A stretch of DNA of 28,531 nucleotides from Cyanophora paradoxa CCMP329 (lineage: Eukaryota; Plantae; Glaucophyta), in assembly GCA_004431415.1 (NCBI GenBank), contig QPMI01000253.1, positions 1 to 28,531 of the forward strand, in the 5' to 3' direction. The translations under genes were made by a program, and so were the position numbers. The notes under the pieces were generated by a model. It was given only the letters and a program-made list of their open reading frames with translations, made no database searches and was not told where the DNA came from. Positions within the stretch are counted from its first letter, which is position 1. Each line of letters begins with the position of its first letter. Of the stretch, positions 3,698-28,531 are shown piece after piece.

Positions 3698-3702
3698 GAG
3701 TT
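3698..3702. repeat. Left target-site duplication GAGTT
   Basis: GAGTT immediately precedes the left LTR and recurs at 21943-21947 immediately after the right LTR. Confidence 0.95.
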
Positions 3703-3952
3703 TGTCGGATGAGAGGATTCCACCGGTGCAGCGTCGTGCGGTCACGCACGGCTGTGGCTGTAGCTGGGAGCACAAGTGTCTATTCACCAGTGTACCCGTC
3801 CAGGGATCGCGTACCCAAACGGAAGTCGCGCCCGGCGCTAAGTCAGAATACAGAGAGTGCTAGAGCTAGCTGCTCGATAGCACTAGACTAGGGCTAGCGG
3901 CTACGCATAGACTACCGGCTAGCCTAATCCGAGGGAATCGCGGCACGCGACA
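3703..3952 (-). repeat. 3' LTR (250 bp)
   Basis: tgtcggatgagagg...cggcacgcgaca, near-identical to 21692-21942; 5-bp terminal inverted repeat TGTCG/CGACA. Confidence 0.97.
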
Positions 3953-3962
3953 CTCTCACTCT
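3953..3962 (-). other. Candidate polypurine tract
   Basis: Minus strand reads AGAGTGAGAG directly abutting the 3' LTR; short, with one pyrimidine. Confidence 0.65.
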
Positions 3963-4624
3963 GCATTACGGTGCGTCCTCGCACCGACCGCGCCAGCGAA
4001 CGTCGAGTCTGCATGCTCGACGGGGTCCACCACCGCCGGGTGTGCACCAACGCGGCAGCGACAGGCGCGGCGAGTGAACTCCTCTCGAAGTAGAATGTCC
4101 GTCATCAGCAACCAGATATGCCAGGTAGCATAGCTCGCGACCGAAATAGGAGCCGATACAGCATGTGCAGTACTAGGCAACCCAGCCAAGCTCGAAAGAT
4201 GAAAAGCATAAAAATCGGAAACCCCCCAAAAGCTGGCCAAACTCGCTCCAACGCGAGAGCCGAAGGAGAGTGGCACGGATGGGAAGTTTCACCGCCTCGG
4301 GAAGAAACCAACGAGGAGGTATCCGGGCCGCCCATCAGCCACGAAAGAGCGGGCACGGCTTGAGCGGACCGCCGACACACCTGCTCTCGGGCCAGATGTG
4401 CCAGCAAAGCTCACGCCAACACTCTTTTTCAAGCTCGTGGCCAGGCTCCAGAAAAGTGAACGAAAGGCTCTGACGGCGCCGCTACTGATCGTCTCACCCG
4501 ACAAGACGGTGGCCCGACCAATAACGACCCGCTCCTCGGCAAGACTGAGGCAAAGCGAGCAAAGAAATCTGCCCCACGGCGCAAGCACAGCGATCGCAAA
4601 GGGAACGGCAATGGGACAAGCATC

Positions 4625-6140
4625 TCACAGGTCGTCGACCAAAATGGCGTCATCCATCTCAACCTCGTCGCCTCGGCAGCCGCTCGGGCCCTCGGCGTCG
4701 ACGTCAGGGGCGAGAGGTGAGTTTTGTTCTTGAGCGAGCGAGTCCGCGGTGCGGGTCGATCGCCGGCTCGTCAACGTTCGCGGCAGTCTTCCGAGGCCGA
4801 CCAACGCGAGGGCGGGCTTGAGACTCGGAGAGACGCGTGCGGAACGGAAGCATGCAGTCGATGTGGGCGACGGTCTCGCGCAAGGACGGGTACGGGCGTC
4901 GTCCTTGGCGGAGTAGGGCTTAGCCGATCCCTTGACCGTGTAGGTGTAACCGCCAGGGTTAACGCCGGTCACGGTGTAAGGCCCGACCCATGAATTGTAC
5001 AGCCCTTTGTTGTGTTCGCCCATCCAGCACAATACCTTGTCGCCAACCTCAAAGCGGCGACGATGAGGCGGGTTGCCGTGCGAGCAACCATGCGGTTCCG
5101 ATAGAACCGACGGTACTCGCGCGAGGCAGCGTCGGCGCTCGCGGCAGCGCGCGTCATCGCGAGAAGGTAATCGGCTGGGTGCGTGTGGTCGGGTTCACGA
5201 AGCGGACGCCGGCTCCGAAGCGCACTTCGCAGGCAGGTGCACTTCAGAACCGCGTGCAGGACCATTGGGAGAACCGGTGGCGGAGTGCACGGTGGTCCGT
5301 AACGCGAGAACGATATCGGCGTTGTAGAGAGGCCAGTCAGAGAGCGGCCGCTTGTGCTCACGGCACATGGCGTAAGCGAGAGTCTTGTAGACTCCGCCCA
5401 GGCGTTCAGCGCCGCCGTTCGAGGCGTGGTGTAGGCGCCGCGTGCACGAACGGGTGCCTTTCTCCTTGAAGAACGCGTTCACGCGCCTCCAACGAGTTGG
5501 ACCGCGGTCCGTAAGACGCGCGCGGGCACGCCTCGTGCATATAGAAGTCGATCGCGGTGGCGAGCAAGGCCTCGCCGAGATACGGGAGAGCGGTAGATAT
5601 AGCAGAACTTGGTGTACGCGTCGACGTACGCGATGATGTATCGCGAACCGTCTTCGTGCATATCCAAGTGGAAGATATCCACCTGCACAGTCTCCTTGCC
5701 CGAAGCTGTATCACCTGAATGGCGTACGGCGGGCTTCGCGGCCTTCGCGAACTGACAGTGCGGGCACGACGCACAAAGCGAGCGATGGAGGCGTACATGC
5801 CAGGCCACCAGAACCGCAGGGCGATCGACGGGCTATCACGGGCGCGCCTCGATGGGCCCAGCCTCGTGATAGGCGTAGAGCACCTGTCGATCCAAGCGTC
5901 CGGCAAGACGGTAGAAACCGGCCGCAGGGACCAAGGGTTGCGCTCGATGACGCCGTCGTCGGCCAGGCTGAACTCGCCGGCCAGGCGTGCAAAGCGCTCC
6001 TTGGCCCGCAGGCAGTGAGCGCAGCTGGGCGAGCAGAGGTCTGCGTCGCGCCTTGAGCCGCGGGTGCAGACAGTTGGGTTCTCGCCTCTGTGTGGAAGGC
6101 GAGAAGCTTCTTGCAGAAGGAATCCTCCTTCTGAGCGCGA
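4625..6140 (-). CDS. Pol: integrase (HHCC zinc finger, DDE core, GPY/F motif); frameshifted in this read-out
   Basis: AQKEDSFCKKLL; VLYAYHE; RFWWPGMYASIARFV; SCPHCQ; VQVDIF...YIIAYVDAYTKF; SNGGAER; DWPLYNADIVLALRTTVHSATG; FEVGDKVL...WVGPYTV; TGA at 4627-4625. Confidence 0.9.
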
Positions 6141-7539
6141 GCAGACGCTCGCGCCTCTCGTCGGGAACATACGGCGCAGCGCGTCGGGGAGCGCCCGTCG
6201 ACGGCTGGCGAGGGTCCGCAGGCCACGCGTCGAGGACGGTATCCACGAAGACCGGCTTGCACGGCGGGCGAACGTCCGGCCTCTAGGGTCGAGTTCTACC
6301 CACCGCTGCGGGCAGCGGTCTCGGCGGCGACCGTCTCGGGCTCGAGCGGGCGGCGTCGTCGGGAGCCTGCCCGCGGGCAGAGGGGCGACCTCGAGCCCGC
6401 GCGCTGGCTTGGGGTCGGAGGGACCGGTCGGACGCGGATCTGGTGACGAGCAGTCTCGGGGAGAGCGAGCGCCGGCGCGGAGGCCCGGGAGGCGGCTCGC
6501 CCTCGGGTCCTCGGCTCCCACTCAATATGGACCGGCACCGGCGATCTGAGGGGTCGACCGGGAACGCCAGTGGCGCGTGTTGTACTCGTCTCGAGGCTGC
6601 CGCCTCAAGGCGGGCGCGAGGGAAGAGCGCGTCGGGATGCAGGGGCCGCGCTCAGCAAATCCCTTGGCGCCCACCGACGGGCCCGGTTCTGAGCGCTTCG
6701 GTACCCGCTCCGCAAGAGCGAGGGAAGCCGTCGGCGTCGCAGGCGTCGGAGGGCCAGGCCCTTCCGGCAACGACTCGTCGTCGATCTCGCCGAGCCTCGG
6801 CCTCTGCGTGAGCGTCCTCTAGCAGCGCGGCCGGGCGCCAGGTCGCCCTCAGGGCGTCGGGCATCTCCGCGTCCGAGGGGCCTCGCGCTCTTCGACAGCG
6901 GCGCCGGTCCGGCTCCGTCGTTTCGGGGCGGCGAGACCGATTCTGGCGCGGGAGCGCAAAGCGCTCTGGGCGGCCCGCGCTCGCTTGCGCGTGGCGGCGT
7001 CGGTAGCCGAGGCGGAGGCCTTGGCCTCAGCGAACCAGCCGACGCAGCAAGCTTGGCGAGCTCGCGGGCAGGCGTCGCGGCGCGCGCTCTGGCGGCGGGG
7101 CTCGGCGTCGGAATCTGTTTCCGCAGCACCGCCAGCCTCGCCTCAGGCTCGGGCGCGGGCGCTTCAGGGCGCCGGCGTCGGGCCGGCCTCGGAGCACTGG
7201 CTGGTACAGGGGCCGCGACTCCTCCTCTGCATAAGAGGAGCGGCCGTCGGGGAGGAGGGGCGCTCGCAGGCGCCGTCCGGGCGCTCGGCGCCTGGCGGCT
7301 CGGCACCCTCGCTGGGGCTTCCGCGCGGAAGCCGGCGGAGTTGGCGAGCTGGCGCAGGCCGCTCGGTCGGGCCAGCTGCATCCTAAAGATGCCAGCGAAC
7401 GTCGGGATCCTCAGCTCAGCCCCTACAGCGTACTGCGGGATGCGAAGCCTCGGCGCCTTGTAGGCGCGGGCTTGACGAGGAACCGTCGGCACCGCCTGCT
7501 GCCAGACGGGTGGTCCTTAGGGAGACGCGAGCATGCGTC

Positions 7540-7900
7540 AGGACCCCCGTTCTGCTTGCCGGGGCGTAGACGATCTCAAAGTCGTAGGCCTGCAAGAGCA
7601 GGGACCAGCGACCGAGGCGACCCGTCGTCGGTCCAGCGTTTCAGCCACTGGAGGCGTGGTGTCGGTCCGCACCAGGAACTGGGGCCGCCCAGCAGATAGT
7701 GGCGCCAATACTTAATGGCCCAGACTACTGCGAGGCACTCCAGCTCCGTAGCGGAGTAGTTCATCTCGGCCGCAGCAGCGTGCAGCTGATGAACGCGAGC
7801 GGCCGCTCGACGCCTTTGTCGTCGCCTGGCTCAGAATCGCGCCGATAGCGTAGGTGCTAGCGTCCGTCTGGAGAATGAAGGGCTTCGAGAAGTCCGGGAA
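7540..7900 (-). CDS. Pol: RNase H
   Basis: FPDFSKPFILQTDASTYAIGAILSQ (TDAS 7856-7867); NYSATELECLAVVWAIKYWRHYLLG; LQWL; LQAYDFEIVY. Confidence 0.93.
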
Positions 7901-8960
7901 CCGCAATATAATATCGCGGCCCAAGAGTTCTTTCAGCTCCTTAAAGGCACGGTCGCGGGGCCGTCCTCTGGCCAACTCCAGGCGGCGTCCTTCAATAGAA
8001 GGCGCTGCATGCGTGCACCACTTTGGAAAAGTTCTCAACAAAGCGGCGGTAGTAGCCGGCGAGGCGAGGAACGAGCGGAGCTCGTCCGCGTTCTTCGGCG
8101 TCTGCCAGTCCGTGATCACCTTGGTCTTCGCAGGGTCCTGGCGGATCCTTCGGCGGAGATGCGGTGGCCGAGAAGGTCGATTTCAGGCACGCAGAAGCGG
8201 CATTTCGACGGCTTCAGGCGCAGGTTCGCCTTAGAGATCGTCTCGAAGAGCGCCTTCAAGTCTAGAAGGTGCTGATCGATGGACGGAGAGAAGACCGTGA
8301 TATCGTCGATGTACGCGACGACACAGTGGTCAGCAAGGGCCTAAGATCGCAGTGATCGGCGGGAGAAGGCCGCGGGCCATTGGTGACCCAACGGCGTAAC
8401 TTTCCACTGGAAGTGGCCCAGGGGACCACGAATGCAGTGTAAGCTCGTGAGCCGGGGTGCAGAGGCAACTGCCAGAAGCCGGCAGTCGCGTCGGCAGTCG
8501 AGAAGACCATCGAGCCGCGGAGGCGCTCGAGCTGGTCGTCGATGCGGGGCAAGGAAACACGTCCCGCTCGGTGATCTGATTCAGCCTCCGATAGTCGACA
8601 CAGAAACGCCAAGTGCCGTCCTTTTTGGGGCCAACACTACCGGCGAGCCATATGCCGCTTGGAGGGCTCGATCAGCCGAGCTCAAGGAGTTCTGAATTTC
8701 CTTGCGGGCGTGTTCCTCGCGTGCGGGTTCATACGCCGCGGAGGCGTGAACACCGGAAGGCGAGTCGTGAGTTTGATCACGTGCTCGTAATAGAGCAGGT
8801 TGCTGGTGCCCTCTTGGCCTCGACCTTGTCTGCGAAGACATCCTTGTAGCGCGCAGGAGCGCGTGAAGTTCGGCTTTCTGCGCCGTCGTGATTGACGGGT
8901 GAGAGCCGAGCTCAGGAATCTTCTTCAGCAGCTCTTGCCACTCCTCCTCTGCATTAGGCA
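7901..8960 (-). CDS. Pol: reverse transcriptase and connection domain
   Basis: [25 protein letters not shown]; [28 protein letters not shown]; AYIDDI (YIDD 8302-8313); LRLKPSKC; DLLGH; [18 protein letters not shown]; [10 protein letters not shown]. Confidence 0.95.
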
Positions 8961-9689
8961 CCGGCCGCGGTGCCTCAGCGGGCTTCGCGTCGGGTGCTGC
9001 AGTCATAGGGGTGGGGCATCGGGCCGGCCGAAAGCGAGGCTGTGACCACACTCTGGGGTGGGGCCTCGGCGTCGGCGACCGGTGCGGCCTTGCGGACCGT
9101 AACGTCGCCGCGCATGGCGCGGACTGCATCGAGCAAGTCGCGCTCCGCTTTTTCGGAGAGACCGGGAAGGTCGAGCGCAGGTGGCGTCGCTGGGACGGCC
9201 ACTGCCTCGACTGCGGCGACGAACTCGTCGACCGAAGGGCCTGTGATCGGGGCCGGCGTTGGGGACTCGCTTCGTGACGACGTGCTCATAGCATCGTCGT
9301 CGAAGCTGATGATGCTCATAGCATCAAGGTCTGCAACGGCGGTCGGCTGTGTCGAGGGCAGCTCGCCAAACGTGACGACTATATCGTCGACGTCGTAGGG
9401 CGGTGCGCGGGGTGGGTCGGCGGCTCCGCAGGCGCTGCGCTAGATAGTGCGCGCTGCTTTTCCGCCTCATCTACGACAGAACGTAGGGTGGAGATTATTT
9501 TCTCAACGTCTTTGGCGGCTCATATGCCGCGCCAAGCATGCGTGCTTTTCTATTAAAGTGGCGGAGTCCAGTGCGGCGTTTGGCAGCACGATTCGCAGCC
9601 GGCGAATCAAGAGGTCTGTCAATGCACTCGCACTACAAGGCATTTGCTCAGGTTCGTACTCAAATCACCAGGCGGTAGGGCGACCGCCG

Positions 9690-9800
9690 AAGCGACCGCT
9701 ACTACCGATCCTAGCGGCAGGGTTACCGGCTGCCGGCCAGGATTGCACAACCGCACGTGAAACATTTTGTCTCCGGGTGATTATGCAGCTGGTAAGGGCA
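9690..9800 (-). other. Post-protease dUTPase-like remnant motif in Pol
   Basis: FHVRLCNPGRQPVTLPLGSVVA resembles the V-x-N...V-x-L-x-x-G-x-x-V-A motif that often follows the protease in Ty3/Gypsy polyproteins. Confidence 0.45.
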
Positions 9801-10029
9801 GAGTACGCCCAAGGCTTGCGGGACTCCGGCGACGGCTCGACGTAGAGGTGCGGCAACTCACGCGTTGCCGGGCCCTGCCCATTGAGCGTGCATGGGACGA
9901 GGCCTCTCCGACGGGAGCTTTACTGGTCCCAGGACTCGGACCAGGATCCCAAGCTGGTCCGGAGCCGAAAAGGGACGACGACTTCGCGGTGCAGGTGGTC
10001 ACGGGCCCGGAGGCACCACCCGGACAGCG

Positions 10030-10352
10030 TCGTGTCGATCTGGCCATGGACGGCCTGGATCGCGTCCAGGCCGAGCAGAATATCCGGCTCAACGCCCATG
10101 GCGCCGCGCGGGACGACGAAGACGCGGCGGCAGAAGCGGAGCGAGCCCAGGACGAAGACTACGTCGGCTCGGCGACAACGAATTTTGTCCCGGTCCATGA
10201 AACCGCGGACTATCGTGTGGCCCTCGACGTAATTGACTTCGTCGGCGGCAGGCGGTCGAGGACTTCCTGGGAACTACAGTTCCCTGGGCGCCCGTGTCGA
10301 CAACAATGCGAGCGGGCCGTTCGGCGCCGGAGCGGCCGTTCGGCAGGCGCAT
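10030..10352 (-). CDS. Pol: retropepsin aspartic protease
   Basis: ARIVVDTGAQGTVV (DTG 10290-10298) and downstream PDILLGLDAIQAVHGQID. Confidence 0.9.
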
Positions 10353-10399
10353 AGCAATGCTGCCGTGGATGTGCAGTGTCTTTGGCCGGAAGAATTCCA

Positions 10400-13300
10400 G
10401 GGCCCGTCGCGCGGGAAGCTAGGTCGGCGCGGCGGACGTGAATTCTGGTTCCGGCGGCGCGGTGGACCCGACAGGTCCGGCGCGCTCGCGGGTGGGGATG
10501 GGGCCGGGACTGGCGAGCCGCGGCTCGCTCGGCGACTCGGCGCTGCTCAGCCTGGTCGGCCAACGGCGAGGGCTTGGTCGCTTGCGCGGGCCCGGGCCGT
10601 GGCGGTTGGCGTAGAGCAACTCGTCGCTGGGCGGGTCATAGCCGGCGCGCGTTCCAGCGGCGTCTCCTCTGCCGGGCGGGCACGGCGAGGGACGGGCGGT
10701 TTTGGAGCCAGGGCGTGGCCCGCGGGCATGAGAGCTTCCTCGTCGGAGGTCAGGCCCTCGGGGTAAATGATCGCGGCGGCCTCGAGTGCGTTCTGCGGGG
10801 CGAACGCCGCTGTCGGCGCTGAACCCGAGAACCACGCGCGAGTTGGCCGTGGCGGGGCCTTATAGCCCGTTTTGCGCATCGAGATGCCGTAGCGGTCCAT
10901 GATCGCCTGATGCACCGCGCGTAAGGCGGGCTCCAGGGTTTTTGGATCGACTTGCAGCATTTGCGCGGGGTTCGACAGCCAGTTGAAGACCAGCACGGTC
11001 GAGCGCGGCCCGAGTTTGTGCAGCAGGCGGCGGGCCCAGGCCGGCGCGGGCTCGCGGCTCTTTGGTGGGGCCGGAGCGGGCGGCGCGGCTGGCGCCGACG
11101 GCGCGACCGTCTGAGCAGGCGGCTCGTGGGCAACCGTCTGGACGCGGCGGATCGAGATGTACTTCTCGTCCGCCGGCACCGGCACGGCGGCACGGACCGA
11201 CGCCGGCGTATGCAAGCGGGCGGGGAGGTCGCGGGGCTCGCGGGCTTCTTGCCCACGGTGCGCCGGCGCCTCTGCGACAGTGTATACCGCGAAGAAGGGC
11301 TTCGGGTGGGCCTTTGCTTCAGCCTGCATCGCCACGCGAGCCTCGTGCTGGCGCTCGCGCTCAAGCAGGGCGCGCCAGTCTTTGGTGCGATCGAGCGTGG
11401 CCTGCAGGGCTTCGAGGTCGGCACGGGGCCCGTCTGGAAGGAGCGAGATCATCATGCCCGTCTCTCCCGGGGAGAGGCTGATCTGCATATCGATGCCGGC
11501 CCGGAGGGCGCGGCAGACGTCTTCCAGGGCTCGCCGAGCAGCCTGCTTTGCCTGGGCGAAGGCTTCGTCTGAGACCTTCGGGGCGCCACCGGGCTTGGCG
11601 CGCGTCTCGGCGTGGCTAGCGGCGGTACGGATTTGGCGCTCGACTGTTTGAAGCCAAAGCCCCAATTCCGTGACCCCTTGGCTCCGGACCCTTACGTCGC
11701 GGCAGCTCGAGCACTCGCGCACAAACTGCAGGAGGCCCACTGCTGGGACGTCGGCCTGGGGGTTGAAAGTCGTGGCGGCGGAGGCGCGCGGCGCGGCCAC
11801 TGAGGCGCGCGGCTGCTCCGGCGTCGACTGGTCTGCGCGCGGCGGCTCGGCCTGGCTCGCACGCGATGACCGCTCCTGGGCCTGAGAGATGGAGGCGCGA
11901 CCCTCCGCAGGCTTGGACGGCGCCGCCGACTGCGGACCGGCCTCGCTCTGCCCCTCAGGCCCCTCTAGAAAGGGCCGCGGGCGCTCGTCGCGTCCGCCCG
12001 TCGGCGGCTGCCCGCCCGATGGCGGCGCGGCGGTGCGGGCCGAGGACGACGCGGACTGAGCGTCCATCTGGTTCTGGAGCTTGATCAGGACCAGCGCGGT
12101 GGCCTGCTCAGCTCGCGCGGGCGCCGAGAGCGAGTCTGGCATCTCAGCGTACTGCGCCTTCCAGACCATGTCGAAGAGCTCGCGCAATGTGGGCGAGCAG
12201 CCTCGCAGGCGGGCGTCGTTCTCGTGCCGCTTGTACGCAGCGTCTACGGCACCGCGCGGCGGGTCCGGCGGGCGGCGAGAGGACTGGCTGCTGCGAGGGC
12301 TGCGGCGGTCTCGCGGCGAGGCGCGGTCGCGCGAGCCCTTCTTCGAGCTCTTGCGCCGCTTATCGTCATGGCGGGGGCTCCGGCTCGGGCTCCGATCGCG
12401 CGAGCGTGAGCGGGAGCTAGAGCGGGACGGTGTTCGGCTCCGGCGGCGTTCCCGCGAGCCTCGGCGAGGACTCCGCCTGTCGCGGGTGTCGCGAGCCGTG
12501 GACCGTCGGCTCGGCGGGCTGCGGTCGCGGCGCGGCGGCGAGCGATCACGGCGGTCCGGGGAGCGGCGGCGGGAGGCCTCGCGGTCCGGCGGTCTGGCGA
12601 AGGGCGTCGGAGCCCTCGCGATCGCGGCGTTCCATCGAACGGCGGGACGCGGCGGCGCCCGGGACGGCCGGCGGGCTCCGGGAGCGCTCGCGGCGCGTGG
12701 AGGGGCCCCGCGTCTCGCGCCTGTCTGGGGTGCGAGAGCGGCGACTGGACGGGGCTCGGCGCGGCTCGGGTGAGCGGCGCTGAGACGAGGCCCGATCAGG
12801 GGTCCGGCGGGCTTGCGACGCGCGGCTGGCCGTCTCGTCCCGGCGGCTCGAGCTTGCCTCGGCCTGGCGGCTCGAGCTGGGCGGCGGCATCAGGGTCCGA
12901 GAGGAAGTCTCAGCCGGCGGGGCTTGGTCTTGCGGGGCGCCCTCGGCGATCCGCTCGACCTTCACCTTCCCGTCCGAGATGGTGACGCGCATAGTCTTGG
13001 GGTCGTACCCCTGCTGCCGCGCGAGGAACGTATCCAGCCCGAACGGGTCGTCCGGGTCGGCCGGGTTTGTGCGGGCTGCGCCTGGCCACCGCCGCGGTCG
13101 CCGCCACGGTCACGGTGGCCTCGGCCGTCGCGACCGCGGTGCCGGCCGCCCTCTGGTGACCCTGACCGCGGCCGCCGCGGCCGACGGCCTGGCCTGCGTT
13201 GCGCGGGCTGCGCCTGCTGCGGCGCCGCCGCGGCGCGGCGGTCTGCGCGGCGGCCTGCGCCGGCGCGGGCGCCGACGTGGTGGCGGAGGGCGCCGCCTCG

Positions 13301-16300
13301 GCGGGGTCATCCGAGAGCCCGCCGACGATGGTGGAGGGCGGCTGGAACCGCACGCCCGCCCACGTCGCGCGAACCGCCCCCTCGTAGATCGGCTGGTACG
13401 GCGTGCGAACCAGGAGGCTTTCGGCTTCCTTATCGGCGACGGCCGTCGCGGTCAGACTGCGCCGGGCTGAGGGCGCGGCGCCCTTGTTCTGGACCGCGTC
13501 CCACATCATCGCCGGGCGCAGCGCCTCAACGTCCCAGTCGGGAAGTTCAGGATCGTCCGTCTCCCAGTCGATCGGACGCGCGAGGCGGATCGCGACGTTC
13601 AGATCAGCGTAGAGCGAACGGAGCATAGTCTCGAACTGAGGCCGCAGGGAATAGCCTCATCGGTAAAGATGAGCCCCAGCGGAAAGTTCCCGGGACAGTT
13701 TTCTAGCTCCTCGGCGGCGCGGGCGGCCTCAAGGTGGCGCTGTATCCCACTCTTGCCCCCGGCGCCAAGGTCATCGCCAGAGGGCCACGCGTCCTCGGCG
13801 CCGGCCATCGGGGGCGAGCCGAGCTCAAGGCGCTGGTACCCAAGGCCGTGCGGCATGTTCGCGAGGTACGCGCGGATGCCGTCCGCCAGCGCGCGGGCCT
13901 CGGACTCGGCGCACTCATCCTCGTCATAGTGCGCAGGAGGGCCCTGAAGACCTCGGCCACGTTCTGGGGCATGGCGGCGTTCAGGGCGCGCAGTTGTCCG
14001 CGCGCTGCGCGAGCAGCGGGATGCGGGGATACTGGAAGCCCTGGAGCATTGCGAGCAGGATCCGCCCACAGATCGCTGCGCGACCCTCGTGGTCCGGCAC
14101 GACCGCATTGTTCGGGCCGAACTTCCACGCGAGCGTGGGTGGCCGTCCGGATACGTCGGCCTCGCATCCGCGTCGAAGACCTTCTTGCCCTGAGGCAAGA
14201 CGTCCGACCCGCGGTCCGGCTTGGCCGTCGGCTTAGTCAGGAAGGCCTCGTGAATGAACACCATCAGACCGTCCGGCACCACACAGCGGAACGAGTTCAA
14301 CACCTTGTTGAAGTCATCCATGTGTTCGGCGACCGCCTGAGCGATCTCAGGGACGTAGTCAGCCGGGCGTTCCGACTCGACGTCCATGGCCGCAGCCGAC
14401 AGAAAGTCGTCAGCCCAGTGCTGGCTGCGGAGGTGCTTGCCCGGCGCGTGGCGCTGGAAGAAGCGCGCGTGCCAGGCCAGCGTGAAACCGATGGCCGTCG
14501 CAAGGACTTCCTCTTCCGCCGGGATCGGCGCCCAAGGGCACGTCTCCGGAGGTGAGTTCGGGAAAGGCGGCAGCTCGTAACCGAACGCGGTGACGAGCCG
14601 CGGGTTCGCGTGACTCTTCTTGGGCTGGCTAGCCAGCTGGGCGACTGTCACCGCGAGCCACAGCTTCTTGTTTTCGCGCTGGCGCGGCGCGCCCTCTGCG
14701 ACATCCTTGTCGCAGGCGGCGTTCGGCGCAGGCGTGGCCGTGCCGGTCACGAGACGAGGCGCGTAGATACGCCGCGTCTTCAGGCGACCCTCAACGTTCT
14801 CGACGCGCTTGTCAGCGAGCGGGCGCAGCAGGGCCAGCACGGCGACGTCGCGCGCGAAGCGGGTCGAGAATGGCGTCCTGGCGTCCTCCTCGTTCGGGTC
14901 GGCAATGTTACCGCCCAAGACTGAGGTGTGCAGGGTGGGGCGCTCGGGGTGCGGCATGTACGGCGGCGGGGCGTTCCGCGCGCCGCCACCTTCGTGGAAG
15001 AAGGCGGTATACAGCACCGCGAGACCTGGCCTAGGGTCGAACACACGGGCACGTGGGCAGTGCCTCGTGCGTGAGATCCCAGGCGCCCGCATACGTCGGG
15101 ACGGCAGACTGTGCGGTACGGGTCCCGACCGCGAGGTACTGCACGATGTCCAAGCTGACGCCGCAGGCAGCGTGCGGGAACGCAAGCCCTGCAGGTCGAA
15201 GAGTTCCGGGTCCTCGTCGAACGGCCGCTGAGGCGGGCCTACGAGCGAGAACCAGTTCACTATGCCGCGCGCGGCGGGGCCGACGCGCTTAAGCATAGTC
15301 GAGCACAGCTCGCCCATGTGCTGGTCCTGCAGCGCGAGCACGTCGATGTTGTACTCGTCAACGTTGCCGGCGTGCTGCCAGCGCAGGGGTAGCTGATCGC
15401 GGGCAGCGTCGCCCACTCAGTGAACCCTGGCTCATAGCATTCCAGGGGCCGGAAAAACGCGTGTTTCCGGTCCATATACTCGCGCAAGAGCTTGTAATCG
15501 TTGGCGTACGTCGGGTCCGCCAACGAGAACAACGGCCGCGGCTGCCAGTCCTTGTGCGGCTCGAACGGCACGTGGGCCGCCGCGGGGATGGCAGCCGGCG
15601 CTTCTTCCTCCTCGCCCTCTTCCTCTTCACTCTCGACATGATCAATGTCGAGAGGATCGAGGCGGGGCTCGGGCTCTGTGTCAGCGCCGTGGCTGCTCAC
15701 GAGCGCGTCGTCGAACGTGAAAGACTGCTTCGCGGCGTGACGCTCGAGGGCGTGCAAAACCCTCTCCTGGAAGGCCGCGCGCTGGGCGGTCAGGGCCAAG
15801 CCCCGGTGCGGGTCGCTCTCGGCGGCTTCCTCCTGCGCACGCGTCCCTAGCCGCAGGTGGCGGCGTAGCCAGCGGACCCCGTGCGGGAACTCTAGGCCAG
15901 CGCGGTCTGCGGATGGGACAGTTGCCCGGCCGCCTCGGCACGGAACATGGTATGAGCACGCAGGAGATGCTGCGCCCACGCCGGCGGAATGACGGCCGAG
16001 TTCGGGTTGAAGCGGCCCCGTGAGTCCACCGCGGGAGGCGCGTGGTGGGGATCGCCAACGCATAGTCAGGAAATGCTCCAACTGCTGCTCCGTCCACTCA
16101 TGCAAGTGGAACGGAAGGTCGTTGGAGTGGGGCGTGACCGGGGCACGGAGGCCCAGCGCGATCATGAAGAGCTCAAACGCGGCCGCGTTCAGCCGCGCGA
16201 GGCGGATAGTGCGCTCGGCCCTAAGTGCAACGCGTCCGCCGGCGGCACCTCGTGCGGCACCGGCGGGCCGTCGAGGCGGCTCTGAATGGGCGTGCCCTTC

Positions 16301-19300
16301 TCGCCCGTGAGGAACGCCTTGAGGTGCGGGACCCGCAGATCAGCAAGGGTGCCCTTCAGCGCCTCATAGGGGATGTTCCAGCGGCGGGCAAGTTCCGCCC
16401 GGGCCGTCATCGGCCAGTCGGCAACTTGCCTCCCTCGCAGAGCTGCGGAGGGCAATGCGGCACCGCGAGGAGGCCGTCTTCCTCCTCACCCTGCCCCGGC
16501 GGGCGCTGCGGGTTCGAGGCCCTGCGAGCCACGCCCGCGGGTGCTGACGCGCACGACCCGTCCCGCGGCCACGCTCGCCGCGACGGGCGGTCTGCCGGGG
16601 GGCCGGTGCCGTCGCGCGCGCGAGATCGAGCGGCGGCTCGCTCAGGCGGGGCTCCACAGGCGCGGGTGCAGGGCAGGCGGCGTCGGCGCGGCGGCGGGGC
16701 GCGGCGCCAGTGGGCTCGCAAGCGGCGGCCATGTCACCGCGGCATGCAAGGTCACGAGCTTCGCCGTCGGTGCAGGCGGCGGGACAGGAGCGGGCGCTGG
16801 CCGGGCGGACCGCATCGGCGCTGGCGTGTCCTTGGCGAGGGCACTTTCACGGGCGGGCGCGGCGGCGGGCAGGCCTTAGCCTCCCTGATCGTCGCGCTGA
16901 CGGCCTTCGCCGTGTAGGCGCCCGTCGTGTCCGACGCCGGCTTCGGCGTGGTGGCAGGTCGTGGAGCGGAGTGGGGTGCGGCTGCCCGCGTCCGTGCGCC
17001 ACTTCTCCACGAGCGCAATCATGTCCTTGACCGCCTCGTCATTGAAACCGGCCTGCTTCTTCAGCAGCCGCCGGAATAAAATGACGAGGTGGCCCGGTCG
17101 CCTGCCTGGGCCCCTCGATGTACCGGAGCAGCTCCGCGGCCCGGCGGAGCCGGGACCGTGCGGGCCCAGGCTGCATCGCACAGGGCGGTGAGTGGCGGCT
17201 CGGGCCGAGCTGGCTCAGCACGTAGAGCTCCTCTGGCACGATCGTGGGCAGCTGCCCGCCTCGCGTCGTGCCGTGCAGGGCAGCTGCGTGGAGCGCGTGA
17301 TCGGGCGCACGCGGCCGACCTCCACGTGCTAGGCTCCGTCCCTGCAGGTGCGGCCCATGCAGCCAGGCATTGCACAAGGGCAGGTCCGGAGGTGCAGCAC
17401 GCGGGCGGCGGCGACGCGGGGGTCCACCGGAACGCGCTCCACCGCGCAGGGCTCGCCCTCGTGCACGAACGGAAAGGCGGGGCACGGCCGTCGCGGTACG
17501 CAGTCAGGCGCTCCGCGAGCGCTGCCCTCAGCCACCCTCGGTGTCCCGATCCGAGCGGAGCCGCGCCGCCCGGGATCGAATCTCGACGGAGAGAGCGAGG
17601 ACGGCGAGCGAGTGTACAGCCGCCGTGAACTCCGAGTCCGAGGGGACGAGAAGGTCCCGTCGGCCGGGCGACGGCGCTCTTGTGGGCGTCGTGGGACGGC
17701 GCGGCCGCCAATGCAAGCCACGGCCCTCCACTGGATCGCGTGCTCGAGGGCTAGCAGGGCGAAGCCGTAGGCGTCGACCGCGAGTCACCATGAGCGGCTC
17801 GGCGAACTTAAAGAAGCGGCCGAGGATCTTCTCGACGGCGCCGGCGGTGCCCGGGGCACCGTAGTCGACGCGGTGCAGGTAATAGCCGCAACGGTCGCGG
17901 CGCACGCGAGGCGGAGGCGGTCCTGAGCCGGCAGCAGCTCGCTCAGCTCGACCAGCTGGCGGCGCCCGACACCGTCATCTCGTGCGGCTCGAGAGAGGCC
18001 GCGCGGGTGAGTGCTGGCCTATGCTCCAGTGGCGGCGGTACGGATCCAGCCAGCCGCGTGGCCACGCACTCGTCCCAAGCTTCGCGAGCTTGTGAACGTC
18101 GGGCTCGACGGCAGGGCGGCCCTCGGACGTGAGGCCTCGGCGTGCGGCCACGCGTGCCCCCGGACCACTTCGCGGCGACGCGAGAGGCCTGGTGCGTGAG
18201 GCTCATGATCTCATAATAGTGCGTCGGCCAGGCGTGGGCCAGCGTGTCCTGGGACAGCGGGTCATGCCCCAGCATCTGCAGGAACGCAGTGGGGAGGGCC
18301 CGCGAGTCGAGGTACGTGCTCTCGGTGGCGAGCGGCTGAGAGAACGCCGCAAGCAAGAAGGAGAGCGTCTGGCGGGTGCGGCCGGGCAGCGGAACGCAGT
18401 GGCATACCACTGCTCGTCCCGGACCTCGATCAGCCCCTCGCTCACAGTGCAGCCGCAGTGAGTCTCGCACGGCGCTGGGTACAGGAACGCCGCGCGGTCG
18501 AGCGGACCGACGCGGCGCCCTTCAGCTTGTGCGCGTCCACGTTCCAGAGAGGAACGGCCCCAGCTCGTGCTCGCGGCCTTCTCCGGGCGAGCTCGACAGC
18601 TCCAAAGTGAGTGAGGTCGAGGCCGAGCTAGCGGCGAGGAGGCGAGCGCGTTGAGGCGCAGGGTCTCCTTGGCCGCTACGGCCATGTCCTCGTCAGCTAG
18701 CGAGGCACCATCGTCGGTCACCTCGAGGCTCGCCACGGTCTCGGCCCCGAAGAGTACTCCAGGCAGCAGCCCACGCCGGCGCAGGGTCCGCCGGAGCCTC
18801 AGCGGCGGTGGCCTCGGGGACCGACTCGGCGGGAGCGAGCTCCGTCGCAGGCTCGGGACCCTCGCTTCTGCGTCAGCGCCCTCGACCTCCGTTGGGTCCG
18901 GGGCGGCCGCCAAGAGGAGTGCGACCTCCTCAAGGCGGCGTCCACGATGCCGGCGGCGAGCTCGCGGGGCTAGAAGTCGGCGCGGGCGTCGGCGCGGGAC
19001 CCTTCGCTTCTGCGTCAGCGCCCTCGACCTCCGTTGGGTCCGGGCGGCCGCCAAGAGAGTGCGATTTCCTCAAGGGCGGCGTCCACTGCGTCGAACGCGA
19101 CCTTCTTCTCCCCCTCGTCCAGACCCGACTCGGCGGTCGGCAATAGATCCTGCGCCGCGCGCGGGGCCGCTCTCGAGCTCGGGCCCGGGGGACAGTCGGG
19201 GCGGTTCTCCGCCGTCAGCTGCGCCACCGCGACCGTGAAGGCGGTGGCTGCGGCGGCGACCGTGTCGAGCGCGGGTCCCTCCTGGGGGTTCTTCAGCGCG

Positions 19301-19600
19301 GCGGCGTTTGCCACGGCGGCCGCGATGAAGACCCGCAGGGTGTCCTCCAGGGTCGCCTCGTCGCTGCGCACGATGCGCACACGGTACACGTGCTTCGCAC
19401 TCCGGAGCTCGGCCGGGAGGCGCAGCGACGGGCAGACCCCGTGTGGGCTAGCGGTGCCCCCAGGAGGGCGCCCGACGCTGCAGGTGCAGCGCGGACGACT
19501 GCTCAGAGGGCGCGCGCGATCTGAATCGTCGCGGGGTCGTTGGCGCCGGCCTGCCCCCTCTGCTCGGCGAGGGCGCGGCGAACGGAGGCCTGGATCTGCT
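10400..19600 (-). CDS. Large extra coding region of the retrotransposon between gag and protease, function unknown
   Basis: Chain of minus-strand ORF fragments with protein-like composition (10547-12187, 12546-12992, 12910-13626, 13599-15416, 15260-16165, 16189-16455, 17528-17905, 17943-18470, 18203-19054, 19015-19389). Several join by single-base shifts, and no AT-rich gaps or intron-like blocks were seen. Confidence 0.75.
18854..19086. repeat. Internal ~92-bp direct duplication (18854-18945 / 18995-19086)
   Basis: gggaccc(t)tcgcttctgcgtcagcgccctcgacctccgttgggtccggg...gcggcgtccac occurs twice with a 141-bp period; encodes approximately DAALEE(V/I)ALLLAAAPDPTEVEGADAE. Confidence 0.92.
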
Positions 19601-21530
19601 CTTCAACGCGGGGCAGGCCGACGCGCGGTGGCCAGGCTCCCGCAGTTGTAGCAGTTGCGTTGATGGGGCCGGTGCCCGGGGACCGGGCTCGTGCGCCCGT
19701 TCGCGCCCGGGCGGGGTAGAACCGCGCTTGGGATCGCCGGCTCCCGCGCCCATCGGCCCGCGCGCTTAGTCGGCTGATCGCCGACCACTCGGGCAAGGGC
19801 CGCGGGTTGGTCCGGCACTCAAACGAGTAGTGCGATTCGCCGCAGTGGCACGGCCGCCGGGCTTCTCGGGAGGCCCCGGGCCTTCAGAAAATCTTTGATC
19901 TTTGCTGATAGACCGGGTCATCGAGGCGAGGCGGCGGTGCGGACGCCGACGGGTAGAGCGCGCGGACTACGGCGAGGGCTCGTCCTGAGCAATGAGCTGC
20001 AGGAACAAGACGACCTCGGCGTTCTGATCCTCGCCGTCGTCTGCGTCCCACCCGTGGCCTCGAGCTCTGCGAGCTCGGCCTCCGTCACCGTCGTCGCGAA
20101 CATGATGCGCGTGCCCGCGCCGGCGCCCGCGTTCGAGCGCGAGGGGACAACGGGAACGGCCGGCGTGTGCGTGGTCGGCGGCGCGCTCTGCGGCGTGCGC
20201 GAGGCAGCCGTGGGCGCCTGCAGCGGTGTTCCGCGCGCTCCAGCACCAAGGCCGAGCCAGGGACTTTAGAGATATCGACGTCCCAGGCGCCCAGTTCATT
20301 GGTGCGCTTGGTTACAAGGTCGATGACCGCAGAGGTCCCGTGATCTCGCGTCCGCGATCTTCTGCGACAGCTCGTCGTAGATCTTCCGAGCCGTGGCGAA
20401 GTTCGTGATCATGTGCCGCGATCGGTGTCCGAAATCTCGGAGTCTTCGAAGTCGCGGCACTGATTGCGAGTGCGGCGCTTGAGCATTTGCCCGCGTGGCG
20501 CATGAGTGCCATGAGCGGCGTCTCGTGCGCTTCGCGGCACTCCGGGATGATGCTCAAGTCGAGGATCGGCGGTAGAACGCCTCCGGCGCCTCGCCACGTG
20601 CGGCAGGTCGAGGAGCGCCTTGTACCGGTCAGGGTTCCGCATCTCGCGTCATCTTCGAGACGGCGCCTGATCGCGGTGTACGTGACCGTGAGGGCGGTCC
20701 GCTGCAAGCCCTCCTCGGCTTGCGCGATCTTCTCGTCGAGCGTCTCAGGATCGCGACGTCCACGAGTCCTCCGTGCTCGTGCGCGCGCGCTCAGCCCGGT
20801 ACGCCCTCAGCTTCTCGAGCTCCGCGCGTGTCGATCTGCTCGGCGCTCTGGAACAACGAGATGTTCTGGCGCACGGGGTGCCGTGATCTAGCGTGCTGAG
20901 AAGAGCCCACCAGTTCGCTTCTGCACTTCGATGTGTGCAGTCGGCGAGACACTAAGCAAGTCCTTGCTCATGCTCGCGCAGCTCTCGAACTGGCGGAGGT
21001 GGTCTGAACCGTGCGCTGATCGCTGCCCGGCGGCAGCTTCGGCAGGCTCTGGATCCATTGCAAAACATTTGATCCGCTCATAGAGTCCATGTCGGCGGCG
21101 CCACGCGCGTGCGCGGCCCGGACGACGAACTCCGGGAGGCTCCGGCCCGAGGACATTCTCAGGTCAAGCGGCGACGTAAGTCACGCTAGTCCGTGAGAGA
21201 ATGTGCCTCGCTCGAGGTCCGAGGCCGTCGTGGTCCACAGCAGCGGCGAGCAAGCTCGGCTGCAGCGATTCTGGAGACAGCTCGGGCGCGCACGCCTCAG
21301 CCGTCGATCCGATCGCTCTTCGTCTTGTCCAGCACGATCGCAGCAGCCGGAGAAGGCTGCGTCGCGGCGAGTGACTGGCGACCGACCGGGAATAGCACCC
21401 TCGGGCTCGCACGGCAGCTCGCGCAGGCGGCGTCGACGAATCCGCCGGAATAGCACCCTCGGGTATTCGCGCGCGGGCCTGGCTTCCACGGGACTAAGTT
21501 CTGGTTCTTTCCAGAATGTTCGGTCGCCAA
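19500..21530 (-). CDS. Gag-like region with CCHC zinc knuckle(s)
   Basis: CYNCG(EP/SL)GHRASACP (C-x2-C-x4-H-x4-C once one missing base is restored, 19613-19653) and CHCGESHYSFEC (19815-19850); helical upstream segments (TLDEKIAQAEEGLQR). Start codon not resolved. Confidence 0.7.
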
Positions 21531-21679
21531 CTGCGGATCAGCCCGGAGCGGCGCAGGCGGGGCGCGAGAAGCGACCCACGACCTCTACCGAGGTCTACCT
21601 GCGCGCGGCTGAGCCGCGGTCGCCGAGCTGGGTCGGTTGCTGATGACGGTCGCTGATGATCGGGGTTCTAGCTCCGTGA

Positions 21680-21691
21680 GCCGATGGCGCC
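21680..21691 (-). other. Candidate primer-binding site
   Basis: Minus strand reads GGCGCCATCGGC immediately after the 5' LTR. It resembles (T)GG-C + 7-nt stem + GC of tRNA-Ser-type PBSs, but the initial T is absent. Confidence 0.4.
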
Positions 21692-21942
21692 TGTCGGATG
21701 AGAGGATTCCCACCCGTGCAGCGTCCGTGCGGTCACGCACGGGCTGTGGCTGTAGCTGGGAGCACAAGTGGTCTATTCACCAGTGTACCCGTCCAGGATC
21801 GCGTACCCCCAAACGGAGTCGCGCCCGCGCTAAGTCAGAATACAGAGAGTGCTAGAGCTAGCTGCTCGATAGCACTAGACTAGGGCTAGCGCTACGCATA
21901 GACTACGGCTAGCCTAATCCGAGGGAATCGCGGCACGCGACA
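21692..21942 (-). repeat. 5' LTR (251 bp)
   Basis: Near-identical copy of 3703-3952, TG...CA. Confidence 0.97.
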
Positions 21943-21947
21943 GAGTT
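21943..21947. repeat. Right target-site duplication GAGTT
   Basis: Matches 3698-3702 exactly. Confidence 0.95.
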
Positions 21948-22287
21948 CTAGGGTACGGTAGTAACGGCCTAACGCCCGAGTTTTTGTCTCTTGAATCGGT
22001 CAAGTCCTTTTTTGCGCAACGCCTTCCTTGATCATGAATGATGTACTACAGTAGATACCGGGTACCCGCCAGCGACGGGCTGGAGCCTGGCGGCCACGTA
22101 TGCGTGCATCATGGCACCACCTGCTCTGCACTGCAGCTGAGTCTGCAGTCGCCCCTGTCCGCTGCAGCTGCTGAACTCCCGCACACTGCCCCGCGCTCGT
22201 GCAGCGCGCTCGCCATCGGATCATCGCATGGTTCTGATTGCGGGCGGCAGGCAGGGCCAGCCGCAGCCGGCGGGTGGGGCGGCTGCC

Positions 22288-25200: not shown

Positions 25201-26398
25201 GGTCAGCCGGCGCGGGGCGGGGGCGGCGGAGCAGAGGGAGGGGCGGGGACCTTCTCGGCGGGCTGCTGGAGGACGTCGACGAACATCTCGCCGGCGTTGA
25301 GCCAGAAGACGGCGCTCGTCTTCTCCGCGTCGTGCCCCAGCATCAGCGGCACCGCCCCGTACAGCCCGATGTTGTTCTCCAGCTCGTACCTGCCCCGGCG
25401 TCGGCGGCGGGGCGCGGCGGGAGGGGAGTGGGGAGCGGCCCGCACTCGAAGATGTCGAGGGTGTAGAGGCGGTACGGCTCCGTCGACTCGCTCACGCCCT
25501 CCCCGCTGCCCCGCGCCCCGTCGCCCGCGCCGGGGCCGGGGCCGGGGCGGGCGCGGCGGGGGTACCGGGTGGGCTTGAGGGCCATGGAGGTGGCGCGCTC
25601 GGGGATGCCGTACACGTGCTTCGCCCCCAGGAACGTGAAATCGGTGCCCATCGACGCGGGGCCTGCGCATCCGGCCCCACCCCGCTCGCAACCGCGCCGC
25701 GCGGCGAGGCGAGGCGGGCGCGGCGCGGCGGGCGCACCGAAGGGCTTCTTGTCGGTGTGCGAGCCGAAGGACTCGGAGCCGGCGCTCTCGAGGCCGCTGG
25801 AGCCGTCGTCGGGGGAGTTGCGCGCGCGCTCCCAGTTGAAGAGGTTCCGCGCGTTCATCACGATGGCCGGGCCCTTCGGGCCGCTCACGGTCAGCCGGAA
25901 CGGCGAGTGCTCGATCTTCACCGACGAGGTGCCGGCGGTCACGACCGTCGCGCCAGCCTGCGGCGGCGTCGGCGGCGCAGGCGGGGGAAGTACTGGAAGG
26001 CCCGAGAGAGTTCGCACCTCAGCGGTCTTGGCGTACTGGGCGACCGATGCCTTGAGGTCCTCCTCCTGCACGACGACTGGCACCTCGAACCGCGGCCGCG
26101 CCGGGTTCACTTCTCGAACGCGCAGGCGGAAAGTGGCATCGCGGTAGGGCGTGAGCTCAAACTGCAGCTTGTTCTCCGCCTGCTCGCTGTGCACAAGCAC
26201 GCCGACTACACTGCTGCCATCGCCAGCGATGCTCTCAGGCAGCACGCTCCACTTGGACGGGTCGCCCGCCTTGTTGAAGCTGCGCTGGCGCTTGCAGAAG
26301 CCGGTATCGCCGCACTTGCGAAACTTGTTGGCTTCGAACGCACTCGCAAGGGCGAGGAACGCGACCAGGGCGACCAGCACCAGCGCCCCGCGACGCAT
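22288..26398 (-). CDS. GANAB: Glucosidase II alpha subunit-like (glycoside hydrolase family 31), ~21 exons
   Basis: Signal peptide then [14 protein letters not shown]; YGIPER; PYRLYTLD; YHQCRWNY; [18 protein letters not shown]; IIDPHIK; WNDMNE (nucleophile); HRDVHNMYG; AVWTGDN (acid/base); ADVGGF; FFRGHAH; GELYVDDG; ends DWTLSIQ* (TAG 22290-22288). Inferred introns: 26017-25958, 25737-25663, 25565-25506, 25445-25390, 25250-25194, 24956-24890, 24821-24757, 24680-24599, 24471-24382, 24259-24203, 24100-24007, 23883-23812, 23735-23646, 23543-23496, 23353-23292, 23152-23101, 22911-22834, 22777-22714, 22678-22614, and one ambiguous near 22590-22486. Confidence 0.95.
24043..24093. repeat. (GGGGGC)n tandem repeat inside a GH31 intron, G-quadruplex-capable
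   Basis: About 8 copies of gggggc on the + strand. Confidence 0.85.
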
Positions 26399-28374: not shown

Positions 28375-28531
28375 GAAGCGACCCGCCTCGCTCTTTCGAG
28401 ACACGCGTGCCGCGCCGCGGGGCGGGGCGGGGCGGGGCGGGCGGGCCACGAGAAGAGTCAAAAGCCCTCCTCACTTGCCCTTGGTCAAGTTCTGGAACCA
28501 CGAGAAGAATCGGAAGCCCTCCTGAGCGCCC

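What the first reader, a model, noticed from the sequence alone, without database searches (positions are those of the whole stretch)
3703..21942. Giant 18.2-kb Ty3/Gypsy retroelement with tiny LTRs and an almost fully coding interior (possible ~5,600-aa polyprotein)
Seen: 250/251-bp LTRs, GAGTT TSD, one set of Pol domains, and minus-strand coding signal from ~21.5 kb to 4625 (~16.9 kb). Established: typical Ty3/Gypsy elements are ~5-10 kb. Large plant Ogre elements owe much of their size to multi-kb LTRs and non-coding spacers, while planarian Burro elements are giant through long polyproteins. Inference: this is a coding-expanded giant lineage in a protist/algal host, possibly undescribed.
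Basis: partly seen in the sequence, partly recalled or inferred. Interest (0 to 1): 0.9.

Follow-up and report, generated by a model that had tools for sequence, protein, structure and literature searches.

The report
Giant frameshifting retrotransposon of a glaucophyte
This is a real, multi-copy 18-kb retrotransposon in the alga Cyanophora paradoxa that carries about 3,100 amino acids of unrecognisable protein between its capsid-like start and its protease, and it likely makes its copying enzymes by a one-base ribosomal slip just after the protease.

Summary
Confirmed: 250/251-bp TG..CA LTRs, GAGTT duplication, and one PR-RT-RH-INT set of Ty3/Gypsy order; about 93% of the interior is coding. 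The broken frames are errors of this sequence: 66 of 68 small shifts against a sister protein are missing bases. Short-read contigs cover all 30 bins at roughly 20-30 times single-copy depth, so 18 kb is the family's normal size. Sister proteins are Cyanophora paradoxa gene models. A second family keeps the whole insert at about 40-50% identity. Correction: it is not one ORF. A stop after the protease stands in contigs of 3 of 3 runs, and pol continues in the -1 frame behind an in-phase C-CCU-UUU heptamer and a hairpin. A distant family shows the same -1 offset. So ORF1 (Gag-insert-PR) is about 3,800 aa, ORF2 about 1,820 aa, and the predicted fusion about 5,600 aa. The insert of about 3,100 aa has no Pfam, NCBIfam, PDB or fold match. 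The RTs form their own well-supported clade. The layout resembles planarian Burro, and the expression scheme resembles RSV; no description was found in 8 literature searches.

The parts
21943..21947 (.). Target-site duplication, right copy (GAGTT)
21692..21942 (-). 5' LTR, 251 bp, TG..CA
21157..21691 (-). 5' leader, 535 nt; the letters next to the LTR look PBS-like but lack the usual initial T; primer tRNA not identified
   Evidence: (no tRNA gene in window)
9920..21156 (-). ORF1: Gag-like N-terminus, zinc knuckles, ~3,100-aa orphan insert, aspartic protease; about 3,800 aa; frame-broken in this sequence by single-base losses
20240..21156 (-). Gag/capsid-like N-terminal block (~300 aa); Gag identity inferred from position before the knuckle, no capsid profile hit
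19610..19860 (-). Two Cys/His knuckles; the second hits Pfam zf-CCHC in sister models (E about 1e-5)
18850..19103 (-). 141-bp tandem repeat inside ORF1; this copy is 126 nt longer here than three sister models (in-frame or predicted intron)
17000..18750 (-). Orphan block A (~600 aa), 52% identical between two families
13230..16420 (-). Orphan block B (~1,000 aa), 48% identical between two families over the part both models cover
10600..12241 (-). Orphan block C, read in frame in sister model P0016; no match to the N-terminal Gag block and no Atlas hit
9975..10380 (-). Aspartic protease with DTG motif, last domain of ORF1
   Evidence: (weak Pfam gag-asp_proteas, E 0.008)
9968..9974 (-). Slippery heptamer C-CCU-UUU in phase with the protease frame; predicted -1 frameshift site
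9937..9961 (-). 8-bp hairpin starting 6 nt after the heptamer; possible pseudoknot partners downstream
   Evidence: (z -1.8 on a chosen 33-nt window, not significant on 53 and 81 nt)
9920..9922 (-). TAA ending ORF1, also present in short-read contigs of 3 of 3 runs
4625..9968 (-). ORF2 (pol, -1 frame): ~450-aa spacer with a dUTPase-like remnant (motif recalled, no profile hit), RT, RH, ~550-aa spacer, INT; about 1,820 aa
8146..8640 (-). Reverse transcriptase core (YIDD)
7580..7900 (-). RNase H (Ty3/Gypsy type)
4990..5900 (-). Integrase: H2C2 zinc finger, rve core, GPY/F-like motif (recalled); no chromodomain hit
3953..4624 (-). 3' non-coding region, 672 nt, ending in a purine-rich PPT-like tract next to the LTR
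3703..3952 (-). 3' LTR, 250 bp, TG..CA
3698..3702 (.). Target-site duplication, left copy (GAGTT)

Best explanation
A recently inserted, multi-copy Ty3/Gypsy LTR retrotransposon of the glaucophyte Cyanophora paradoxa has two long overlapping ORFs: ORF1 of about 3,800 aa (Gag-like start, zinc knuckles, about 3,100 aa of orphan sequence, protease) and ORF2 of about 1,820 aa (RT, RH, INT), likely joined by a programmed -1 ribosomal frameshift just after the protease. Shown: boundaries, domain order, copy depth, the stop after PR, the -1 offset of pol, and the in-phase heptamer. Inferred: most ribosomes would stop after PR, so every Gag molecule would carry the whole insert and its own protease, as in RSV Gag-Pro; a minority would slip at C-CCU-UUU, helped by the hairpin, to make the ~5,600-aa fusion. 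PR would then cut ORF1 into capsid, nucleocapsid and three or more accessory proteins made at capsid stoichiometry. My committed guess for those proteins (about 35%) is nucleic-acid or chromatin binding that helps the element handle its 18-kb RNA and escape host repeat silencing.
For: Boundaries and TSD. Pol domains and closest solved relative Ty3 Gag-Pol, E 4e-76. Short-read contigs cover 30 of 30 bins in 3 DNA runs; seven interior contigs of X1 are 20-30 times the depth of the one single-copy flank contig, and LTR positions 72-76 times. Sister models tile the window collinearly from 21156 to 4628, and 66 of 68 small shifts against P0004 are missing bases. Contig lengths keep the frame across 7 of 8 tested stretches. 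Over 9860-10620 all 3 runs show the same 10 single-letter insertions, none between 10243 and 9912, and no change at the TAA. Only 5 X-XXY-YYZ heptamers occur in 18,240 nt, and one sits in phase in the 76-nt ORF overlap, against 0.007 expected. Distant families (RT-RH about 48-51% identical) keep Val-Pro-Phe at the same place after PR (3 models). In one of them the PR-frame tail of P0091 is jointly encodable with the pol N-terminus of P0085 for 49 residues in the -1 frame, against 10 or fewer in the other 37 of 38 comparisons. Family 2 keeps the insert at about 40-50% identity over 2,300 aa. All 19 Cyanophora-style RT-RH sequences form one clade, SH-like support 1.0. Repeats in this alga are methylated (PMC12344493, passages).
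Against: Frameshifting is not measured. The hairpin is modest: z -1.8 with 11 of 200 shuffles as good on a chosen window, and z -0.35 and -0.48 on wider windows. Val-Pro-Phe in other families is protein-level only, and the P0091 offset could be a sequencing error in that copy. One of 8 phase checks (6877-6243, RH-INT spacer) is off by one and unresolved. About 650 nt of ORF1 (12250-12900) and a few short stretches have no sister model, so a hidden stop is not excluded. The Gag block has no capsid profile hit. One family-2 model (P0028) joins the Gag start directly to RT without PR, either a long predicted intron or an internally deleted copy. LTR depth is about 2.5-3.5 times the interior, so solo LTRs or short derivatives probably exist. 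The role of the insert rests only on an Atlas lead below 0.9 and on the RS-rich segment.
Confidence: 0.74

Rival explanations
1. Same giant element, but RT-RH-INT is reached by splicing out a short intron after the protease (as in Ogre) or by separate initiation, not by ribosomal slippage.
For: The host has many short introns (mean 86 bp; PMC6704402, passages). [quoted passage not shown] Predicted models join PR to RT across introns (P0006), and several pol models start at a Met after PR.
Against: The ORFs overlap by 76 nt rather than being separated by a 170-270-nt spacer. An in-phase heptamer sits in the overlap. A distant family shows the same -1 offset. The modelled introns differ between copies and remove conserved coding sequence.
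Confidence: 0.13
2. One continuous ~5,600-aa ORF; the stop after PR marks a defective but abundant subfamily.
For: All other breaks examined are sequence errors. Non-autonomous subfamilies can outnumber autonomous ones (own knowledge).
Against: The stop is in the dominant contigs of 3 of 3 runs. The -1 offset recurs in a family with about 48% RT-RH identity. No sister model in hand reads PR into the pol spacer without a break.
Confidence: 0.05
3. The insert is the relic of an ancient fusion of nested elements or captured host genes, now carried passively rather than working as accessory proteins.
For: ORF1 diverges much faster than pol between families 1 and 2 (about 40-50% against 92-98% in RT-RH). 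More distant families carry an unrelated pre-PR block.
Against: The frame is kept open for about 9 kb in two families with conserved motif blocks and codon bias like pol. No second RT, Gag or LTR remnant was found. The origin may still be by capture; only passivity is doubted.
Confidence: 0.06
4. A normal 8-9-kb element inflated here by a nested insertion or a misassembly.
For: The sequence is error-rich. One model joins Gag to RT directly.
Against: Depth is even across the interior, and contigs bridge 11331-14204 and 14236-16338. The largest listed skip is 409 nt (15 of 94 joints shown). Sister models on several contigs share the order. No internal LTR or second TSD-bounded unit was found.
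Confidence: 0.02

Closest known systems
Burro / GYPSM1 giant gypsy-like elements of planarians (PMC6431247, passages)
   Same: N-terminal Gag with CCHC knuckles, then thousands of residues of extra protein before PR, a dUTPase-like stretch between PR and RT, and a precursor of about 5,000 aa (4,873-5,140 aa there, about 5,600 aa fusion here).
   Different: Burro has one ORF1 through INT, long LTRs, a total above 30 kb, and recognisable extras (BIR, BCL2, ankyrin, MATH, Env). Here the LTRs are 250 bp, the total is 18.2 kb, the ORFs split after PR, and no extra domain is recognisable. No Burro RT was in the tree, so kinship is untested.
Ogre (plant Tat clade; PMC6317226 and PMC6431247, passages)
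   Same: [quoted passage not shown]
   Different: Ogre has 1.9-6.5-kb LTRs, an intron-bearing spacer between the ORFs, an archaeal RH between RH and INT, and separate extra ORFs. Here the LTRs are tiny, the ORFs overlap in the -1 frame, the RH-INT spacer has no aRH hit, and the extra sequence is fused inside ORF1.
Alpharetroviruses RSV/ASLV (PMC12789967 and PMC5009743, passages)
   Same: Protease encoded at the end of Gag; pol reached by a -1 frameshift at an X-XXY-YYZ site with a downstream structure.
   Different: A functional analogy only: this is a Ty3/Gypsy retrotransposon by RT, RH and INT, has no env, and its Gag ORF is several times longer.
Yeast Ty3 (closest solved structure, 7q5b)
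   Same: PR-RT-RH-INT order; RT-RH matches at E 4e-76; short LTRs and a 5-bp TSD (Ty3 features recalled).
   Different: Ty3 is about 5 kb and shifts +1 before PR (recalled).

Membership tests
Ty3/Gypsy (Metaviridae) LTR retrotransposon | Two direct LTRs with TG..CA ends and a 4-6-bp TSD | tested here: met
Ty3/Gypsy (Metaviridae) LTR retrotransposon | Domain order GAG-PR-RT-RH-INT | tested here: met
Ty3/Gypsy (Metaviridae) LTR retrotransposon | RT/RH closest to Ty3/Gypsy | tested here: met
Ty3/Gypsy (Metaviridae) LTR retrotransposon | Capsid domain in Gag | tested here: inconclusive
   zf-CCHC hit only; no capsid profile or PDB sequence hit; this block was not folded
Ty3/Gypsy (Metaviridae) LTR retrotransposon | PBS and PPT | tested here: inconclusive
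   PPT-like tract present; PBS-like letters lack the initial T; no host tRNA set available
Burro (planarian giant gypsy) | Extra protein between Gag knuckles and PR | tested here: met
Burro (planarian giant gypsy) | Single ORF through INT | tested here: not met
   stop after PR
Burro (planarian giant gypsy) | BIR, BCL2, ankyrin, MATH or Env domains | tested here: not met
   no such Pfam hit in 110 and 8 proteins scanned; remote homology by HHpred not testable
Burro (planarian giant gypsy) | RT groups with Burro | not testable with these tools
   no Burro sequence among the 82 tree rows
Ogre / Tat clade | Multi-kb LTRs | tested here: not met
   250 bp
Ogre / Tat clade | Archaeal RNase H between RH and INT | tested here: not met
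   no Pfam hit in the spacer of P0006
Ogre / Tat clade | Intron between GAG-PROT and RT ORFs | tested here: inconclusive
   ORFs overlap instead; no RNA reads cover the site
Chromovirus clade | Chromodomain at the end of INT | tested here: not met
   no chromo hit
Chromovirus clade | RT groups with plant and green-algal chromoviruses | tested here: not met
   separate from the plant, Chara and Haematococcus group (support 0.97); that group is unlabelled, and its chromovirus identity is inferred from Pfam chromo marks
-1 programmed frameshift site | X-XXY-YYZ heptamer in the zero frame inside the ORF overlap | tested here: met
-1 programmed frameshift site | Stable stem-loop or pseudoknot 5-8 nt downstream | tested here: inconclusive
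   8-bp hairpin at 6 nt, z -1.8; wider windows not significant
-1 programmed frameshift site | Measured frameshifting or transframe peptide | not testable with these tools
   needs a reporter assay, ribosome profiling or mass spectrometry

The most novel reading that the evidence does not exclude
A glaucophyte-specific clade of virus-like retroelements that independently reached Burro-scale polyproteins and loads about 3,100 aa of new protein folds into every Gag subunit: a swappable accessory cassette (different in distant families, on a shared pol) that provides new structural, anti-silencing or cell-to-cell functions.
Probability: 0.25. Interest if true: 0.85.

Novelty: new variant of a known kind. 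Interest (0 to 1): 0.63.

Why it matters
A review calls Burro's giant multi-domain polyprotein a unique example (PMC6431247, passages). This is a second case with the same layout in a distant lineage, the glaucophytes, whose LTR elements were reported only as 1.77% of the genome (PMC6704402, passages). Placing the frameshift after the protease predicts that the orphan insert is made as abundantly as capsid, so it is directly testable by proteomics in a culturable alga. It offers at least three large conserved protein blocks with no known fold, and a test of how large an RNA and Gag a Ty3/Gypsy particle tolerates. In practice, gene predictors split these elements into ordinary-looking host gene models.

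Tried and rejected
No whole genome is held, so siblings could not be measured at DNA level. No RNA holder was listed, and the one RNA-labelled run laid gave only short off-target pieces; this says nothing on expression. AlphaFold2 of blocks A and B failed (mean pLDDT 34.6 and 29.8), and Foldseek of model A gave no match at E 0.001 or better; the wider structural search was busy and not run. Pfam, NCBIfam and PDB sequence profiles gave nothing for the insert; PHROGs timed out. The Atlas gave only leads under 0.9 for block B (ALOG, QRICH1, Phage_int_SAM_1, GINS) and nothing for block C. The idea of a second Gag at 11-12 kb was rejected: no similarity to the N-terminal block. A read-through TAG just before PR (10421-10423) was rejected: it is out of frame once the short-read differences are counted. 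Homology of the pre-PR block of distant families to this insert was not found. The HMMER scan of 1.84 billion representatives with P0001 gave 16 hits; the 5 of them looked up by name were Cyanophora models. Viral contigs gave none, and metagenome contigs gave only an unrelated 35%-identical element. Earlier scan notes: none. PMC1370496 (recoding signals in LTR elements) is not held. The first tree run returned no answer and was redone with FastTree.
Full report
Observation. The element runs from 3703 to 21942 on the minus strand. Its LTRs (250 and 251 bp, TG..CA) align with 244 matches, 1 mismatch and 11 gap columns, and GAGTT flanks both ends. Near-identity implies a recent insertion. Pfam on 105 minus-strand ORF pieces finds RT and RH clearly and PR and INT weakly, in the order PR-RT-RH-INT. 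A sister pol model, P0006, gives all of RT, RH, H2C2 and rve above cut-off and matches Ty3 Gag-Pol best among solved structures (E 4e-76). No other long direct repeat exists inside apart from a 141-bp tandem.

Host. Nine proteins related to the element were looked up by name and all are EukProt models of Cyanophora paradoxa (9 of 9 listed). Other hits with the same naming style are taken as the same species by inference. The right flank holds an intron-rich GH31 glycosidase gene, in line with the high GC and short introns reported for this alga (PMC6704402, passages).

Is 18 kb real? Twenty DNA runs hold the stretch. Three were laid: all cover 30 of 30 bins, and contigs bridge 11331-14204, 14236-16338 and 9953-11185. 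In run X1, seven interior contigs have 20-30 times the depth of the one single-copy flank contig, and LTR positions 72-76 times. This is a rough copy estimate from one reference contig. The largest listed skip is 409 nt (15 of 94 joints shown). This copy differs from the majority contigs by about 1-8% substitutions, so it belongs to a subfamily. One family-2 model joins the Gag start straight to RT (P0028), so deleted derivatives may exist, but the nested-insert and misassembly readings fail.

Why the frames are broken. Six sister models chain collinearly along the window from 21156 to 4628; P0016 and P0008 fill most of the remaining gaps. Against P0004, 66 of 68 small shifts are bases missing from the window, and the listed contigs are nearly all longer than the window span they cover. 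These are errors of this sequence. Adding each contig's extra letters to the span between known codon starts keeps the frame in 7 of 8 tested stretches; the exception, in the RH-INT spacer, is unresolved. The Arg/Ser-rich stretch at 12250-12900 has no sister model but is net in frame.

One ORF or two? Around the protease all 3 runs agree on 10 single-letter insertions over 9860-10620, none between 10243 and 9912, and no substitution at the TAA at 9920-9922. So the protease frame really stops there, while the TAG just before PR is out of frame. Coding continues in the -1 frame, which opens at about 9998. In this 76-nt overlap lies C-CCU-UUU (9974-9968), in phase with the protease codons. Only 5 such heptamers occur in 18,240 nt, giving 0.007 expected in phase in the overlap. 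An 8-bp hairpin starts 6 nt downstream; its stability is modest (z -1.8 on a chosen 33-nt window, not significant on 53 and 81 nt). Three models from distant families (RT-RH about 48-51% identical) carry Val-Pro-Phe at the same distance after PR, and several pol models begin at a Met just after PR. For one distant family, the PR-frame tail of P0091 and the pol start of P0085 are jointly encodable for 49 residues with pol in the -1 frame; the other 37 of 38 comparisons give 10 or fewer. The X-XXY-YYZ rule, the 5-8-nt spacing and PR-in-Gag for RSV/ASLV are from PMC12789967 (passages); -1 pol frames in animal LTR elements are from PMC5009743 (passages). Frameshifting itself is inferred. Splicing as in Ogre (PMC6317226, passages) remains the main rival because no RNA covers the site. 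Sizes from shift counts: ORF1 about 3,800-3,840 aa, ORF2 about 1,820 aa, fusion about 5,600 aa.

The insert. About 9.3 kb (about 3,100 aa) separates the zinc knuckles (about 19.6 kb) from PR (about 10.4 kb). A second family (P0022, P0014) starts with the same N-terminus and keeps the same order at about 40-50% identity over 2,300 aa. Its neighbouring pol models (close gene numbers on the same contigs) are 92% identical over the RT-RH query. Codon-position GC in the insert resembles pol. Nothing names it: Pfam, NCBIfam and PDB profiles are blank, folding failed, and a scan of 1.84 billion representatives gave 16 hits. The Atlas returned only leads under 0.9, three of which (ALOG, QRICH1, Phage_int_SAM_1) I recall as recombinase-derived DNA-binding folds. 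More distant families have at least 480-930 aa of a different, unrelated block before PR, which suggests a swappable cassette on a shared pol; their full lengths are unknown.

Placement. Of 121 proteins examined, 111 had a long RT-RH match and 82 were kept; 29 redundant pseudoscorpion rows were dropped, and 6 Cyanophora-style models were too short. All 19 Cyanophora-style sequences form one clade (SH-like 1.0, long stem), with about seven families, apart from the plant, Chara and Haematococcus group. Its sister group is unresolved (FastTree, midpoint root, no labelled GyDB, REXdb or Burro references).

Mechanism. Shown: architecture, copy depth, stop and -1 offset. Inferred: a full-length RNA is translated mainly into Gag-insert-PR; a minority of ribosomes slip to add RT-RH-INT; PR, present once per Gag, processes the precursor; reverse transcription and integration follow the Ty3/Gypsy route, leaving a 5-bp TSD. 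The insert products would be as abundant as capsid. My best guess is nucleic-acid or chromatin binding that serves RNA handling and escape from the repeat methylation reported in this alga (PMC12344493, passages); this step is weakly supported.

Comparison and novelty. It is a Ty3/Gypsy member. It works like Burro in layout (PMC6431247, passages) but fails Burro's single-ORF and domain tests. It shares Ogre's GAG-PROT / RT split but not its LTRs, aRH or spacer. It works like RSV in expression. Eight literature searches listed no paper describing this element; the genome paper reports only 1.77% LTR content (PMC6704402, passages). I did not read that paper's supplements, and Repbase and Dfam could not be checked, so an unannotated library entry may exist. 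All papers were seen as search listings or find-passages, none in whole. Verdict: real; new variant of a known kind; interest 0.63.

Noticed in passing
window 22280-26400 (-): Intron-rich GH31 glycosidase gene (likely glucosidase II alpha) with all three GH31 Pfam domains; it ends about 350 nt from the element's 5' LTR.
   Followed up: partly
window 26640-28380 (+): Gene with a weak F-box hit at its N-terminus (E 3e-4), divergent from the GH31 gene.
   Followed up: partly
L001 126-11494 (and L002): Unrelated metagenome Gypsy-type element (35% identity): ORF1 of 2,027 aa containing a DTG protease motif, and an overlapping -1-frame ORF2 with a C5 DNA-methylase-like domain (Pfam E 3e-4, below cut-off) before RT-RH-INT and a C-terminal PHD-like finger. 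Recalls KnitGypsy-Dnmt3 (PMC5890265, passages). Its one heptamer in the overlap is not in phase.
   Followed up: partly
P0022/P0014 with P0025/P0026 against P0004/P0024: Family 2 has ORF1 only about 40-50% identical but RT-RH 92-98% identical to this family, suggesting recombination of pol between families or very fast ORF1 evolution.
   Followed up: partly
window about 15050-15070 (-), block B: An HExxxH-like run is identical in both families; a possible metal-binding motif, recalled and untested.
   Followed up: no
window 5910-7560 (-): About 550-aa acidic, Pro-rich spacer between RH and INT, ending in a Cys-rich motif before the integrase zinc finger that is also seen in a 69%-identical family.
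   Followed up: no
window 16338-16497 and 19395-19775: Majority contigs carry 286 and 434 letters where this copy has 158 and 379: length polymorphisms in low-complexity linkers of ORF1.
   Followed up: partly
P0001-P0006, P0016 and other sister models: Copies of this element are annotated as ordinary host genes, often with predicted introns placed at frame breaks.
   Followed up: yes
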